From NCBI GenBank assembly GCA_965112155.1, contig OZ218102.1: DNA of 64,000 nt. The stretch is one strand, 5' to 3'. Source of the stretch: Podarcis liolepis. Its lineage: Eukaryota. A model generated the notes under the pieces. It was not told the origin of the DNA. It made no database searches and saw nothing but the letters and a program-made list of their open reading frames with translations. Shown here piece by piece: positions 6,622 through 30,590 of this stretch. Position 1 is the stretch's first letter; the number at the start of each line of letters is the position of its first letter. The translations under genes and the position numbers were made by a program.

Positions 6622-7615
6622 CAGTGGTACCCCGCAAGACGAACGCCTCGCAAGACGGAAAACCCACTAGACGAAAGGGTTTTCCGTTTTGGAGGCGCTT
6701 CGCAAAACAAATTTCCCTATGGGCTTGCTTCGCAAGACGACAGCCCATAGGGAAATCTCAGGGACAGCGGGGAAGCGCAGCGCGTCTTCCCCACTGTCCT
6801 CGGACCTCCTCCGAAGCCTGGCGGCGGGGCGGGGACACCTCCTCCCGCCGCCGGGCTTCGGAAGACTCCTCCGAAGCCGGGCGGCGGGGCGGGAACACCT
6901 CCCGCCGCCGCCCGGCTTCGGAACGGTGCTCCGAAGCCGGGCGGGGGGGAGGGAACACCTCCCACTGCCGCCCGGCTTCGGAACGGTGCTCCGAAGCCGG
7001 GCGGGGGGGAGGGAACACCTCCTCCCGCCGCCTGGCTTCGGAACGGTGCTCCAAAGCCGGGCGGCGGGGCGGGAACACCTTCTGAAGGCGGGCGGGGGGC
7101 GAAAGTCTTTGCTCCCCCCTGCCTGCCTGTCCCGGAGGGCTTTTGAAGGCAGGCGGGGGGGGAGCAAAGACTTTCGCCCCCCGCCCGCCTTCAGAAGAGG
7201 TCCAGGACCTCTTCTGAAGGATGGCGGGGGGCGAAAGTCTTTGTCCCCCCTGCCTGCCTTTCCAGGGGCTTTTAAATCGCCCCGGACAGCGGAGAAGTCC
7301 TCCGCTGTCCCGGGGCGATTTTAAAATGCCGCCCGCCAGCATTTTAAGATCGCCCAGACAGCGGAGAAGTCCTCCGCTGTCCCGGGGTTTTTTAAAATGC
7401 TGGGGGTGGGAAGAAAAGCCCTTGTTCCCCCCCCAGCCTTCAGAAGAGGTCCGGGGACAGACTGTCCCCGGACCTGGTCTGAAGGCGGTTTCCCTAGGAA
7501 CGCATTAATTGATTTTCAATGCATTCCTATGGGAAACCGTGCATCGCAAGACGAAAAACTCGCAAGACGAAGAGACTTGCGGAACGAATTAATTTCGTCT
7601 TGCGAGGCACCACTG
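6622..7615. mobile_element. Non-autonomous Tc1/mariner (pogo/Tigger-like) element with internal GC-rich ~60-bp tandem repeats
   Basis: TIRs CAGTGGT(A/G)CC(C/T)CGCAAGACGAA, TA on both sides. Confidence 0.9.
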
Positions 7616-24013: not shown

Positions 24014-24909
24014 CCGTATTTTTTGCCCTATAGGACGCACTTTTTCCCCTCCAAAAATGAAGGGGAAATGTGTGTGCGTCCTATGGGGCGAATGCAGGCT
24101 TTCGCTGGAGCCTGGAGAGCGAGGGGGGTCGGTACACACCGACCTCTCTCGCTCTCCAGGCTTCAGGAAGCTATCCGCTAGCCGTGGGAGACCCAGCTCT
24201 CCCAGGGCTAGCGGAGAGCTTGCCTGCACCCAGAAGTTTGGGGCACGCTGAGCTCCGCACGCCCCAAGCTTCGGGATTAGCGCAGCGCTCCGCTAGCCGT
24301 GGGAGAGCAGCGTGGCTCTCCCAGGGCTAGCGGAGACCTTGCCGGCACCCAGAAGCTTGGGGCGCGCTGAGCTCCGCACGCCCCAAGCTTCGGGATTAGC
24401 GCAGCGCTCCGCTAGCCGTAGGAGAGCCGTGCAAAGTCACCCGGGTCTCCCGCGGCTAGCGGAGACCTTGCCGGCACCCAGAAGCTTGGGGCCGCTGAGC
24501 TCCGCACGCCCCAAGCTTCGGGATTAGCGCAGCGCTCCACTAGCCGCAGGAGAGCCGCGCGGCCTCTCCCAAGCTTTTTTTGGGGGGGGAAATAAAGGGG
24601 AAAAAATTGTTTTCCCCCCAGGTGCACCGCGCTAATTCCGAAGCTTGGGGTGTGCTGAGCTCCGCACGCCTCAAGCTTCGGGATTAGCACAGTGCTCCGC
24701 TAGCCGTGGGAGAGCCGCGCGGCTCTCCCGCGGCTAGCGGAGACCTTGCCGGCACCCAGAAGCTTGGGGCGCGCTGAGCTCAGCACACCCCAAGCTTCGG
24801 AATTAGCGCAGCGCACCTGGGGGGAAAATAATTTTCCCCCCTTTATTTCCCCCCAAAAAAACTAGGTGCGTCCTATGGGCTGGTGCGTCCTATGGGGTGA
24901 AAAATACGG
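24014..24909. mobile_element. Non-autonomous Tc2/pogo-like element with ~118-bp palindromic tandem repeats
   Basis: TIR CCGTATTTTT..CCC.ATAGGACGCAC at both ends, TA TSD. Confidence 0.88.
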
Positions 24910-25287: not shown

Positions 25288-25564
25288 CTGGGAGGAAAAT
25301 ATATTAGCTAAAGTTTTGCTTCTATTCAGGTGTTTTAATGAAGAAGAAATTCACAGGAATGGAAAGGAAAAGAAATATACACTGAAATCACAAACTAGCT
25401 TAATCTTGGGAGTCCAGTCCATGATCTGTGAAACACAGTGGTTACAAGTCCAAAATTAAACCACAGTTTCCAGTTGGGACACAACACAAAACCTGCGTAA
25501 GGAAGCCCACAAGGAAAGGAGCAGGGTGGGAGTTCCCAAAGCAGGGCCATTACATCTGAACAGG

Positions 25565-25931
25565 TGTGGGAAAATGATTGCTTGTACATAAGAGCATGAG
25601 CAGAGTTCTTATTATTGCAGAGTGATTTTACAGCACGAGATATTGCTAAGAGCATGATGAGCATGTGAACACCTCATGCTAGACTAATGATTGGCTCACG
25701 TAGCATAACACTCTCTTTGTCTGTGGGCAAAAGCAAGGTTACATTCCTTTGATTTGGTTACTTTTGAGTACCAGGCAGAGCAAGCGCAGTGCTGGAGGAG
25801 GGAGGATGATTTATTTCTTACTGCACACAATAAACGTTACGGCTGTAGCCAAAGCTTCTTCTTCAAGTCATCTTGGTGTGAGACTGATTTCTTACTGATT
25901 TTCTTACTGATGTCGAGCTGGATTCTCGACA
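25565..25931 (+). repeat. 5' LTR (367 bp)
   Basis: TGTGGG...TCGACA; AATAAA near 25829; no difference from the 3' LTR by eye. Confidence 0.97.
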
Positions 25932-25933
25932 AT

Positions 25934-25948
25934 TGGTGCCCCGTGTGA
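25934..25948 (+). other. Primer-binding site complementary to elongator tRNA-Met 3' end
   Basis: TGGTGCCCCGTGTGA, 2 nt after the LTR; reverse complement of ...UCACACGGGGCACCA (tRNA-Met-CAT as recalled). Confidence 0.85.
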
Positions 25949-26173
25949 CTGCCTTTGGACTCCACGTTGTTTCTCATCGTTCAGCGCTCACCACACGTCT
26001 TTCATCCGCTATGGATCCCGGTGAGTGCTCCCTTGGTACCCCGTGTATGTGATTCTGGATTACGTTAAGGACTTATCAGCACTCATCTCGCCCGGCAAGG
26101 GCTGCAGACGCGTCGTTCATCCACCTAGTGGATCCCTGGTGAGTGCTCCCAACCCCCCCTTTCTTTTGCCATT

Positions 26174-27181
26174 ATGGGGCAGTCTCTCTCTCCACCACAG
26201 AAAAAGTTTTTTGAAGACCTTAAATCTCTTTTGGCCAGCAACAGCCTTCTTGTCTCAGATGCTGATATCGTGTCTCTTATAGAAGCATTGGATACCCATT
26301 GCCCCTGGTTTTTTCCTCAGGAGGGGAATTGGCATTTAAAAGACTGGGAAAAAATAGGACAATTTTTCCAAAACCATCCTCAGATTGATGTCAACGTTTT
26401 GCATGCCTGCTGTAAGGTTTATAAGGCTATCTCAAGCTTAACTCCTACAAATCTCCTCCTGGCCGCTGCTTCAGCTCCTTTGCCCCCCCTCCCAATCCTC
26501 ATGCTGCCTTCAGAAGCACCGTCTTATCAGCCTCCTAAACAGGCAGACATTTTTTCTCCGGCTCCTGTCCTCCCTCCCCTGCATTCTTCGCATTCCACAC
26601 CCCCCATTTCCACTGCCCTCCAAGAGACTCCTCCTGCTGCTCCTCCGTTGCTTGCCTTTGATTCAGACAGTCCAACTCTCTCAGCCCCCGTCATGCTGAC
26701 CCAAACCGATGTTCTCGATGGGCTGACGGGAGGAGGCAATTTTCTTACCATTGCCCAACAGTTGGCCCTTGATCCTATGTATTGGGCAGCCACCACAGCC
26801 TCAGCCCAAGAGGCTCTGGCCTCTGTCCCTGATGACAGGAATGAGCGTGATGGCCGATGTGGAAGCATCAGACAGGGCCCTGCAAAGCCCTATGGACAAT
26901 TTGTTGATCGCTTGTATAATACCTTCAAGCGGCAAGTTCAGGACCTGGCAGCACAAGAACTGATTGTACGCCAGCTTGCATTTGATCATGCACATGAGGA
27001 CTGTAAGCAAGTGCTGCGCCTTCTAATGGCAACATCAAATATAGCCATTGCTGATATGCTTAAAGCCTGCCAGTCAGTGGGCACTGAGATGCACAAAGCT
27101 CATCTTTTAGCCACAGCCTGGTCCTCCACCGTGTCCCAAAATCCTGCTAAGGATAAAACCTGTTGGATTGACAATGGCTAA
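26174..27181 (+). CDS. gag: Betaretrovirus-like Gag, 335 aa (MA, Pro-rich spacer, partial CA; NC deleted)
   Basis: MGQSLS myristoylation motif, p10-like CPWF..EG.W..KDWEKIG, major homology region IRQGPAKPYGQFVDRL, CA end MLKACQSVG. Confidence 0.92.
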   Translation: MGQSLSPPQKKFFEDLKSLLASNSLLVSDADIVSLIEALDTHCPWFFPQEGNWHLKDWEKIGQFFQNHPQIDVNVLHACCKVYKAISSLTPTNLLLAAASAPLPPLPILMLPSEAPSYQPPKQADIFSPAPVLPPLHSSHSTPPISTALQETPPAAPPLLAFDSDSPTLSAPVMLTQTDVLDGLTGGGNFLTIAQQLALDPMYWAATTASAQEALASVPDDRNERDGRCGSIRQGPAKPYGQFVDRLYNTFKRQVQDLAAQELIVRQLAFDHAHEDCKQVLRLLMATSNIAIADMLKACQSVGTEMHKAHLLATAWSSTVSQNPAKDKTCWIDNG

Positions 27182-27467
27182 GGAAAAAATCCAGCGGACC
27201 TTACCCATTACGTGCCTGGGACACCAGCTGACAGCATCTGCAGTTACGCCTCAACTACAGTTCCCTGATCATTTTAAACTGGTGGATTTACAACAAATTC
27301 TTGGACAGTTGAATTGGATAAAGAGTTATTTGGACCTGCCCACCTCCACTCTGTCTCCACTATTTTCTGCCCTTAAGGGACACAAGAATCCAGCGGACAA
27401 GATCACAACCACCTCTGCAATGGAAGAGGCTCTTCCACAGCTGTTCCAGTGTTTCCTGGCACGCTGA
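27165..27467 (+). pseudogene. pol: pol remnant (end of RT palm plus thumb)
   Basis: GLTMAKEKIQ...DLQQILGQLNWIKSYLDLPTSTLSPLFSALKG resembles the betaretroviral RT thumb; no protease or YxDD. Confidence 0.85.
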
Positions 27468-28620
27468 AAGGCCATCTTCATCACTACTGCATTGGCCCCC
27501 CTTTTCCCTGGGAAGCCACTTCAACCACCAAACATCATTACAGTTTTGCTGCCTCCCAATAGCGACCATCCCATCTGTGTCATCACGCTTCATTGGGCTT
27601 GGACTTTTGACTCAGCAGTACAAGGAGCAATACATCAGACTTATTTACAGCAAATGGGCTCCTGTATCTGCAGAAATGGTTGTGTGACTTCTTCTGGATT
27701 GTGGTTTTTACATGCCAATAATCGAGCCACGAAATATCACACAGGTTGCTTGGAAGTGGCCATTGTACTAATTTACCATTCTCATCCTTATTGACATCAC
27801 TTGGATTTTACCCCCCAGATCTCTTCTTTTTTTCTCCTCCCTCAGGAGTCCTGCCCTATGATGTGTTCCCCTGAGCATGTACAGAGGGCTGTCTTGGAAC
27901 TATTGTGGACTCTTGGCAAGGGAGGGGGTGAAGGGATTTTAGTGTGTTCCAGTTGTTTCATTCTTGTGCTTTGGCATGGTTCCCGGACAGAAAGAAAGTT
28001 GCAATATGGTTCTTTAGCAAGGCCCGCGAATACAATGGGCTCTGTTCTCGACCTTGTTGCAATCTTTTTAGTTACAGCAAGCAGAATTTGCTTGGCTAGT
28101 GCTTTTAGCTGCTGAGAAAAATGATTTTTAAAAGCTTCTCGAAGCTTTGAGCCTTTTTTGGTGGTTGTATTCTAGCTTTCCAGTAAATGCTTCATTTAAG
28201 ATTAGCAATAATATGAAGGACAATCGTATAAGTTTATCACCTGTGTTTTGTTGCTTGCAGAAATAGTGTCTTATTGTTTTCGTTTTAATCATAATAGCAG
28301 TATATTTTTAGGTCATTATCCATATTGTAATTGGACCTATGAGTATGTTAATGGATCTTCTTGTTTTTTTTAATGTTACCACTATGAGTGATAGGCCGAA
28401 AGTCTCAGTTAATAATGTCATAACCTACATGACTTATGACCAACAGGCTGCGTGTATAGATTTTTATGTTTGGTTCAACTGGATGAGAAAGAGCAGTAAA
28501 TCTACATATTTGCTTCAATTTGATTTATGGTTATTCTGTGGCAAATTGGACCGAAGCTTTGTTTTTTAATTCTATCATCTTTGTTTTAAAAATAATTAAC
28601 AAACAAACAAACAAAAAAAG

Positions 28621-29073
28621 TCAGAAATGAGAGAAGTTGCTTTATAAACTTTTTATGCTTTAAATGTAATCCTTGCCTCTAAAGTTGGAATTTATGCCTT
28701 AATTCATTCTCATTGTTGTATGTATATAACTGATCAATCAACCAATATCTCTGCTACTATTGATTATATGGAACAAATGATAGCCCATAATCCTTTGAAT
28801 CCACCTGAAGGTTTTGATCCATGGGATTGGTTATTTTCTTGGTTACTTAATGGATTATGGTTAAGAAATTTATTATTGATTGTAATTGCATGTATTGTTG
28901 GTTTTATTATGTATTCAATGCTTGCTTTCTTTAATTCCCAATGTACTGCATGGTGGTTTCGACCACGGCCCACCACAGGGATTACAAGGGGAATTTATGT
29001 TGCAAAATATAAATGCTTAGGTAATGGGATTGCGATTCTGATTAATGGTCCCTCTTTTCCTCTTATAATATAA
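28621..29073 (+). pseudogene. env: env TM remnant, gamma-type
   Basis: SEMREVAL*TFYALNVILASKVGIYALIHSHCCMYITD is a decayed immunosuppressive domain plus CX6CC, followed by WDWLFSWL and a hydrophobic anchor. Confidence 0.8.
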
Positions 29074-29089
29074 ACAAGAAAAGAGGGCA
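29072..29089 (+). other. Polypurine tract
   Basis: AAACAAGAAAAGAGGGCA immediately before the 3' LTR. Confidence 0.85.
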
Positions 29090-29456
29090 TGTGGGAAAAT
29101 GATTGCTTGTACATAAGAGCATGAGCAGAGTTCTTATTATTGCAGAGTGATTTTACAGCACGAGATATTGCTAAGAGCATGATGAGCATGTGAACACCTC
29201 ATGCTAGACTAATGATTGGCTCACGTAGCATAACACTCTCTTTGTCTGTGGGCAAAAGCAAGGTTACATTCCTTTGATTTGGTTACTTTTGAGTACCAGG
29301 CAGAGCAAGCGCAGTGCTGGAGGAGGGAGGATGATTTATTTCTTACTGCACACAATAAACGTTACGGCTGTAGCCAAAGCTTCTTCTTCAAGTCATCTTG
29401 GTGTGAGACTGATTTCTTACTGATTTTCTTACTGATGTCGAGCTGGATTCTCGACA
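29090..29456 (+). repeat. 3' LTR (367 bp)
   Basis: Direct repeat of 25565-25931, followed by TSD AACAGG. Confidence 0.97.
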
Positions 29457-30590
29457 AACAGGCTTTAGCCCTGTAGTGTTTTGTTTGCGTGCATTTACAA
29501 ACCTGTGTGCATAACGCAGGATGAAATCGTTATATCAACCCTTAGTCTATCCAGCTCAAAGGAATATAAAATCAGTTCCCTTCTTACAATACTTGGGACA
29601 CTTGATTCTGAAAGTATCCTAAGAATACTGACTTATGGTTCCAGAGATTGGTAAAGAGTAGGTTTGTTAAACTGGAAACACTGATGAAAATGTAGGCGTA
29701 AACAAGAAATTCTACTGTCGACAAGAATAAATAATGAGAGCAGTACCTAAAACAACAGGCACAGAAAAACAACTGATCTTTCACAAAGGCAAAAGGTTTT
29801 TTCAAAAGTTTTGCAGTTAATTGCATATCATTTTCCTTAAATAATTCTGTGAACAACTATAAAACATCAGAGGCCAAATGGTTTATCTGCATATCTTACG
29901 CCTTTCTGGCTATTTGCTTACATTTCAAATACATTTTCCACACACACTCATGTGCATGTAGAATGCCAAGAAATTCATTATCCTTAGGATTTACACTTAA
30001 GAATCAGTTACGTATCCAAAATAATTCAGTGCTATTCTGCTTGACTGTCAAGGAAAGGCAGGCCTTGCCAAAATAATATACGGCTTGTTAATAAGCGATT
30101 CCCAGGATACAAGAAGAGCATATATTTAGGACTCTACATTCTGCATCAGAAAGATCTGTAATACATTTATTATTGCTTTCAGATGTGACCTTTATTTTCT
30201 GGCAAAGGACCAGTAAGCAAGCAATCTCTATTAATCTAATTCTGTTTATTCAACATAGTGAAATTTCTTTAGGCTGCTGTGGTAACATCATGAGAGATCA
30301 CTGACATTTCTACCCATCTTAGAATCAGTGGATAAAGAGCCTATAGATGGCTACACATTTTGCTATGCTTATCCACGACTATGTAAAAGACTGGTAATTG
30401 GCAAAAGCAGCATAAAATCTTTTAAAAATATCTAACAGCTGGCTTATTTTAGTTGAAATCTAATTAGCAAATAAATAAATACAGTGGGATGCCGCTGAAA
30501 CTTTCTCCTTACATAGTAGCATTATCAGAATACACAGGCACAGTGCAGAAAAGGGGAGTAAAATTGAACAGCGTTGCAACATTAACTGAC

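What the first reader, a model, noticed from the sequence alone, without database searches (positions are those of the whole stretch)
26174..27181. Only gag stays open, trimmed to MA + spacer + CA C-terminal half
Seen: a 335-codon uninterrupted ORF with an intact MGQSLS myristoylation signal. The apparent CA N-terminus (PV at aa 172) runs almost directly into a motif from late in the CA N-terminal domain (DGLTGGGNF...QQ), implying an in-frame loss of roughly 100 aa. The MHR and CA C-terminal domain remain, and NC is cut at its first Cys (KTCW). No canonical PPPY or PSAP late motif is evident. Known: defective Gag proteins (Fv1, enJS56A1) can restrict related viruses. Inference: a membrane-targeted, dimerisation-competent, RNA-binding-deficient Gag could be selected as a dominant-negative or co-assembling factor, or because its translation helps in cis.
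Basis: partly seen in the sequence, partly recalled or inferred. Interest (0 to 1): 0.75.

Follow-up and report, generated by a model that had tools for sequence, protein, structure and literature searches.

The report
Parasitic lizard retrovirus keeps gag open
This is one fresh copy of about 130 stripped-down endogenous retroviruses in a lizard genome; the family keeps its shortened gag gene readable while the capsid protein it encodes decays, likely because reading the RNA through to its usual stop helps it get copied by intact relatives, not because the lizard uses the protein as a defence.

Summary
The 335-codon ORF is real. It lies in a 3.9-kb class II (betaretrovirus-like) provirus with identical LTRs and a 6-bp target duplication. 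The own genome holds 130 deleted copies sharing one NC-to-RT deletion, plus longer relatives that could supply proteins. 103 of 130 keep an ATG-to-stop frame. Shared capsid indels are in frame (6 of 6; untranslated remnants 6 of 19) and stop alleles are depleted (1 seen, 10.1 expected). Yet capsid amino-acid changes occur at the neutral rate (133 seen, 121 expected), the invariant MHR Glu is Lys in 120 of 128 copies including this one, and 13 copies spread without MA or the gag ATG. So selection acts on the open frame during helper-dependent copying, probably through RNA survival. A cis-acting protein, as in mouse IAP 1delta1, is the main rival. A host restriction factor is unlikely. New variant of a known kind.

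The parts
25559..25564 (+). Target-site duplication AACAGG, 5' copy
25565..25931 (+). 5' LTR, 367 bp, TG...CA, AATAAA at 25829; identical to the 3' LTR
25874..25895 (+). U5 stretch predicted to pair with the gag start region (-20.7 kcal/mol, no shuffle control)
25934..25948 (+). Primer-binding site; likeness to elongator tRNA-Met is recalled, not confirmed
   Evidence: two searches found no tRNA gene
26174..26470 (+). gag MA (Gly2 kept; Cys at a conserved Trp, aa 79); four confident helices in the model
26471..26680 (+). Proline-rich spacer, no canonical late motif, low-confidence coil
26681..27163 (+). After the 115-aa deletion: tail of CA-NTD, MHR with Glu->Lys, CA-CTD, spacer and first Cys of NC
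27164..27181 (+). gag/RT deletion junction and the new stop codon shared by the family
27165..27433 (+). RT-thumb remnant behind the stop; kept in 127-129 of 130 copies
27432..27793 (+). Two joined env SU fragments
27794..28177 (+). 384-nt non-env insert of unknown origin, in 118 of 130 deleted copies
28178..29089 (+). env SU/TM remnants and polypurine tract
29090..29456 (+). 3' LTR
29457..29462 (+). Target-site duplication AACAGG, 3' copy

Best explanation
The ORF is the shortened gag of a young, helper-dependent endogenous retrovirus family whose frame is kept open from start to stop while its capsid residues drift, likely because ribosomes must reach that stop for the RNA to survive and be packaged by intact relatives. 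Shown: family structure, youth, frame bias, neutral capsid changes, sense transcription across the junction in a close relative. Inferred: full-length relatives supply Gag, Pol and Env in trans; copies that gain a frameshift or stop during reverse transcription still insert but leave no offspring; the penalty is nonsense-mediated decay of the unspliced RNA, as shown for Rous sarcoma virus. MA may add a protein-level benefit, but that is less certain.
For: 103 of 130 deleted copies keep ATG-to-junction-stop. Start-to-internal-Met lengths seen in 2 or more copies are multiples of 3 in 12 of 12 cases (91 copies measured) and Met-to-stop lengths in 6 of 6 (103 measured); all 11 off-frame lengths are single copies; behind the stop only 3 of 9 shared lengths keep the common frame. 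Shared indels in frame: CA-tail/CTD 6 of 6, MA 1 of 1, RT/env remnants 6 of 19, Fisher P=0.005. Alleles absent from all longer copies: CA-tail/CTD stops 1 vs 10.1 expected, nonsynonymous 133 vs 120.8, synonymous 40 vs 38.2; control stops 19 vs 22.5. Conserved and other capsid sites change alike (pN/pS 1.56 vs 1.68). Tree-based omega in 70 copies: CTD 0.63, untranslated RT remnant 0.53. Thirteen copies lack MA and the ATG but keep a 156-160 aa frame from an internal Met to the same stop. Copies are mosaics, and 22 regained the CA-NTD by at least six crossovers, as expected from co-packaging. Two bulk RNA runs show sense reads across the junction (depth 21 and 30 vs 2 and 5 antisense). RSV precedent: PMC2925335.
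Against: NMD itself was not tested. The stop here is new, so any natural stability element behind the original gag stop is gone; the remnant behind the new stop shows normal mutation density. MA has fewer private amino-acid changes than expected (16 vs 39.4, synonymous 9 vs 7.3), which points to some protein function. In this copy's own 23-member subfamily the CA-tail/CTD also shows a twofold deficit (10 vs 19.7, P=0.013 uncorrected). Five of the six shared CTD indels cluster within about 30 nt, and alignment-based events are not fully independent. The protein search scored 150 of 392 candidates and favours readable frames. The RNA reads are mostly 90-99% alike, so they do not show that this locus is expressed.
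Confidence: 0.55

Rival explanations
1. Cis-acting protein, like mouse IAP 1delta1: the shortened Gag (MA, perhaps with a partly working CTD) stays with its own RNA and recruits or co-assembles with helper Gag, raising the RNA's chance of being packaged.
For: MA private nonsynonymous changes 6 vs 21.0 expected in 80 copies, synonymous 5 vs 3.8; MA omega 0.30; Gly2 in 114 of 114 ATG-bearing copies (few changes expected, so weak); MA and CTD still model as folded domains; CTD deficit in this copy's subfamily; IAP precedent.
Against: Recently helper-derived DNA shows the same deficit without needing a function: CA-NTD in 22 recombinants 1 vs 6.9, TM omega 0.40. Thirteen copies spread without MA, and three more lost about 50 MA residues in frame. 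NC, the RNA-binding part, is gone. It does not explain why stops are purged from a capsid region whose residues are free to change.
Confidence: 0.3
2. Host-domesticated restriction factor (Fv1, enJS56A1 or Ty1 p22 type): the lizard keeps this Gag to poison assembly of related viruses.
For: A myristoylated MA plus CTD without NC has the right outline; MHR mutants of HIV-1 stay membrane-targeted but arrest assembly (PMC4734008), so poisoning is conceivable; the family is transcribed.
Against: LTRs identical; 53 of 111 measurable sibling LTR pairs identical, mean divergence 0.3%; nearest sibling only 95% alike, so frame selection happened between insertions, not at this locus. Pfam CTD score falls from 79-82 bits in full-type to 42-60 in the 8 copies with deleted-lineage CTD that were scored (58.7 here). 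The family kept spreading, which needs a working helper.
Confidence: 0.05
3. No selection: the frame is open only because the copies are young and the founding deletions happened to be in frame.
For: Insertions are very recent; this copy has 2 private substitutions in the six segments tested; the two big deletions each arose once.
Against: Copies differ by 5-20% in gag and carry many lineage-specific changes; the same copies tolerate stops and frameshifts in their untranslated remnants at the expected rate but not in gag.
Confidence: 0.07

Closest known systems
Mouse IAP 1delta1 non-autonomous subfamily (class II ERV)
   Same: Internally deleted, helper-dependent, outnumbers new insertions of the full element, keeps one open frame from the gag start that acts in cis (passages in PMC7411935 and PMC6466679; the primary paper was not held).
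   Different: 1delta1 makes an in-frame Gag-Pol fusion; here gag joins pol out of frame and stops, CA-NTD and NC are both lost, capsid motifs are damaged, and the full-type relatives carry env.
Rous sarcoma virus gag frame and RNA stability element
   Same: Premature stops in gag lower unspliced RNA through UPF1 (PMC2925335 abstract and Background): a ready reason to purge stops but not amino-acid changes.
   Different: RSV is a full virus with its natural stop and a mapped element; here the stop is new and no element was identified.
enJS56A1 transdominant Gag of sheep; Fv1 (recalled)
   Same: Defective betaretroviral Gag in an open frame.
   Different: enJS56A1 is a fixed, host-selected provirus (abstract of PMC2065879); this is a fresh insertion in a spreading family.
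Ty1 p22/p18
   Same: C-terminal capsid half made from an internal start (abstract of PMC8458377); resembles the 13 MA-less copies.
   Different: p18 keeps dimer interfaces and blocks assembly; here the CTD drifts and loses conserved motifs.
HERV-K (HML-2) Gag
   Same: Best sequence and fold match in PDB (8c9m).
   Different: About 30% identity; full length.

Membership tests
Class II (betaretrovirus-like) endogenous retrovirus | LTR pair, PBS, PPT, 6-bp target duplication | tested here: met
Class II (betaretrovirus-like) endogenous retrovirus | Gag_p10 MA and gag, pro, pol in separate overlapping frames in full-type relatives | tested here: met
Class II (betaretrovirus-like) endogenous retrovirus | Placement within Betaretrovirus on an RT tree | not tested
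   Only similarity: best Pol hit 7sr6 at E 3e-130 (that it is HERV-K RT is recalled). Env of the relative scores as TLV_coat, and no dUTPase was found in pro.
Non-autonomous helper-dependent ERV | Lacks pro, RT and IN yet has many independent recent insertions | tested here: met
   0 of 130 keep the NC-pro-RT stretch; distinct flanks and near-identical LTRs
Non-autonomous helper-dependent ERV | Related coding-competent elements in the same genome and signs of co-packaging | tested here: met
   Open gag, pro, pol and env frames occur among the 14 longer copies examined; recombinants in both directions
Non-autonomous helper-dependent ERV | Mobilisation in trans shown by experiment | not testable with these tools
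   bench work
IAP 1delta1-type cis-acting fusion | In-frame Gag-Pol fusion protein | tested here: not met
   out-of-frame junction with stop
IAP 1delta1-type cis-acting fusion | Translation needed in cis for spread | tested here: inconclusive
   frame selection fits; no direct test
Gag-derived restriction factor (Fv1, enJS56A1) | Old or fixed locus kept by host selection | tested here: not met
   identical LTRs, 1 of 130 copies; fixation in populations not tested
Gag-derived restriction factor (Fv1, enJS56A1) | Purifying selection on the capsid-interacting domain | tested here: not met
   family-wide neutral; a twofold deficit in one 23-copy subfamily
Gag-derived restriction factor (Fv1, enJS56A1) | Trans-dominant block of particle release | not testable with these tools
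   bench work

The most novel reading that the evidence does not exclude
The parasite has been selected to disarm its own capsid domain so that it can keep translating gag without poisoning the helper capsids it depends on: an anti-restriction-factor Gag. One 20-codon window at the CTD helix 9/10 junction has 32 nonsynonymous alleles against 13.7 expected (synonymous 4 vs 4.1), five shared in-frame deletions cluster there, one Cys codon has five different replacements each in 2 or more copies, the MHR Glu->Lys and a two-residue loss in HKA are near-fixed (120 and 110 of 128), and recombinants that regained a helper-type MHR with full CA occur only as single copies (3 of 22). A mutational hotspot, escape from a DNA-binding repressor, or alignment noise near the gaps are not excluded.
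Probability: 0.25. Interest if true: 0.7.

Novelty: new variant of a known kind. Interest (0 to 1): 0.45.

Why it matters
Open frames in defective retroviruses are often read as signs of host domestication. Here a whole family with built-in untranslated controls shows that an open gag frame can be kept by selection on the element alone while the protein decays. It gives a natural, countable case for why non-autonomous ERVs keep translation, so far argued mainly from mouse IAP 1delta1, and it extends that life style to a reptile. I found no paper on this family in six searches, but the library lacks most subscription journals and repeat databases were not searched.

Tried and rejected
Plain pairwise dN/dS was rejected as a test: it gave below 1 for the CTD (0.41-0.52) but also for the untranslated RT remnant (0.31-0.39), because recombination imports helper variation. 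The first lineage-specific count is biased upward (CTD about 1.5, RT control about 1.2), so spectrum-corrected counts were used. Single-sequence folding was poor (pLDDT 44); the 26-row alignment gave 74, but AlphaFold does not report point-mutation damage. Rfam found nothing credible in the element. Two pattern searches for the primer tRNA gene found nothing. The origin of the 384-nt insert was not found: the 40 scored of 355 candidates were all family copies. No indexed holder was on record as RNA. Earlier scan findings: none returned. Saito et al. 2008 was not held. Two codon-model runs printed no omega and were repeated. Dropped rows: 5 of 150 hits belonged to another family (39-42% identity); 15 of 145 were set aside as longer or rearranged copies; per-segment counts use only copies covering 90% of the segment (108-128 of 130); 4 copies with long helper tracts were left out. 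Two pairs among the 130 look like segmental duplicates (same flanks) and were not removed.

Full report
1. Observation. The ORF at 26174-27181 (+) is 335 codons. Pfam gives MA (Gag_p10), the last third of the CA N-terminal profile and Gag_p24_C; the best PDB match by sequence and fold is HERV-K Gag. A model built on 26 sequences has a confident MA, a coil spacer, three helices of the NTD tail and a CTD. NC ends at its first Cys because a deletion joins gag to the RT thumb out of frame, creating a stop five codons later. The copy lacks residues shared by most of 25 relatives: Trp79, MHR Glu238, Asn272 and Asn274. That Glu is one of two invariant MHR residues, and even a conservative change blocks HIV-1 particle production (passages of PMC4734008).

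2. Setting. The ORF lies in a 3,892-bp provirus (25565-29456) with identical 367-bp LTRs and the target duplication AACAGG. It sits antisense in an intron of a diacylglycerol kinase gene on the minus strand, with C1-domain exons near 30.7 and 32.3 kb and catalytic and accessory exons at about 21.6, 20.2, 11.5 and 9.8 kb. The closest named database proteins are from Podarcis muralis and Zootoca vivipara, so the host is inferred to be a lacertid lizard.

3. Family. A search with the capsid tail scored 150 of 392 candidates; 145 were this family and all were fetched. 130 share the gag-to-RT junction and are about 3.5-5 kb; 15 are longer or rearranged, in a young and an older subfamily. Open gag, pro, pol and env frames occur among the 14 longer copies examined. 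Of 111 measurable LTR pairs, 53 are identical and 98 differ at 2 sites or fewer. Copies are mosaics: most carry MA from the young subfamily, this copy's subfamily carries an older MA and LTR, 22 regained the CA-NTD, and 3 of the longer copies took up the deleted family's 384-nt insert within env. This is what repeated co-packaging and template switching produce (inference).

4. The frame is selected. 103 of 130 copies keep ATG-to-stop; 13 lost MA and the ATG together; the other 14 are single breaks or truncations. Every gag length shared by two or more copies is a multiple of three (12 of 12 and 6 of 6), all 11 off-frame lengths are singletons, and behind the stop only 3 of 9 shared lengths keep frame. 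Shared indels are in frame in 6 of 6 cases in CA-tail/CTD against 6 of 19 in RT and env remnants (P=0.005). Stop alleles: 1 vs 10.1 expected in CA-tail/CTD, 1 vs 5.9 in MA, 19 vs 22.5 in controls. Broken copies thus insert but do not multiply.

5. The capsid protein is not selected. Lineage-specific nonsynonymous alleles match neutral expectation (133 vs 120.8; private ones 55 vs 60.8), equally at conserved and other sites. Tree-based omega is 0.63 against 0.53 for the untranslated RT remnant (recombination ignored). MHR Glu is Lys in 120 of 128, MHR Gly is Asp in 31, two residues of HKA are lost in 110, while 13 of 13 full-type copies keep Glu, Gly and Lys. Against this: this copy's own subfamily shows 10 vs 19.7 private changes (P=0.013, one of about ten such tests), and this copy keeps HKA. 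MA does look constrained (16 vs 39.4), but recently helper-derived DNA shows a like deficit, so that signal is ambiguous.

6. MA-less copies. In 13 copies the start region has become a near-perfect complement of U5 (median -41 vs -20 to -26 kcal/mol in 11 measured), erasing the ATG, and the first long frame starts at the internal Met and ends at the usual stop. U5/gag pairing is a known packaging feature of MPMV (passages of PMC3884649). These copies show that myristoylated MA is dispensable for spread, while a frame to the stop remains.

7. Expression. In two bulk RNA runs of a related label (about 12% of each read), reads lie mainly in sense along the whole element and cross the junction at depth 21 and 30 with no joint listed (15 loose-end rows not shown). 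Most reads are 90-99% alike, so they show the family, not this locus. A contig from a second organism label also spans the junction.

8. Mechanism. Most likely (0.55): helper proteins copy the RNA, and translation to the junction stop protects it, as premature gag stops trigger UPF1-dependent decay in RSV (PMC2925335, abstract and Background). Shown: frame bias, neutral capsid, transcription. Inferred: trans-complementation, decay as the cause. Rival (0.3): the protein acts in cis as in IAP 1delta1 (passages). Host restriction (0.05) and mere youth (0.07) fit poorly.

9. Novelty. It works like IAP 1delta1 but fails that family's fusion test; it fails the tested marks of a Gag restriction factor. 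Six literature searches returned no description of this family; papers were seen as listings, abstracts or passages as stated, no supplements were read. The boldest reading left open is active disarming of the CTD (32 vs 13.7 nonsynonymous alleles in one window; five replacements at one Cys), at 0.25. Verdict: real, new variant of a known kind, interest 0.45.

Noticed in passing
window 27794-28177: A 384-nt insert replaces about 275 nt of env in 118 of 130 deleted copies, persists when both flanks are swapped by recombination, and has entered 3 longer copies. RNA reads of another origin match part of it (27900-28100) on both strands. No Rfam match; source unknown; could be an export or packaging aid.
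   Followed up: partly
L085, L100, L145 and 10 other copies; equivalent of window 26174-26200: The gag start has been rewritten into a 21-25 bp complement of U5, destroying the ATG; looks like template switching along the U5/gag pairing.
   Followed up: partly
window 26960-27030: Hotspot of in-frame deletions and amino-acid changes at the CTD helix 9/10 junction.
   Followed up: partly
window 25934-25948: Primer-binding site resembling elongator tRNA-Met (recalled); most deleted copies match for only about 15 bases; the tRNA gene was not found.
   Followed up: partly
window 26010-26150: The leader holds repeated blocks with a splice-donor-like GGTGAGT; block number varies between copies and in RNA reads.
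   Followed up: no
window 9746-32400 (-): Host diacylglycerol kinase gene; the provirus sits antisense in an intron between C1 and catalytic exons.
   Followed up: partly
P0008, P0004: Database proteins from other genomes also join the gag CTD to nearly the same RT-thumb position; either gene-model artefacts or parallel deletions.
   Followed up: no
L035, L042, L049, L050: A second class II family in this genome (about 40% identical) also has copies whose gag frame runs past CA but ends without zinc knuckles, with a shared tail; a possible second case of the same pattern.
   Followed up: no
G000 contig C20: Most of the 150 best Gag_p24 hits lie on one contig, as expected of a repeat-rich sex chromosome (inference).
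   Followed up: no
window 24114-24842 and 6749-7108: GC-rich tandem repeats (about 120-bp and 60-bp units) inside other mobile elements; the first ends 700 bp before the 5' LTR.
   Followed up: no
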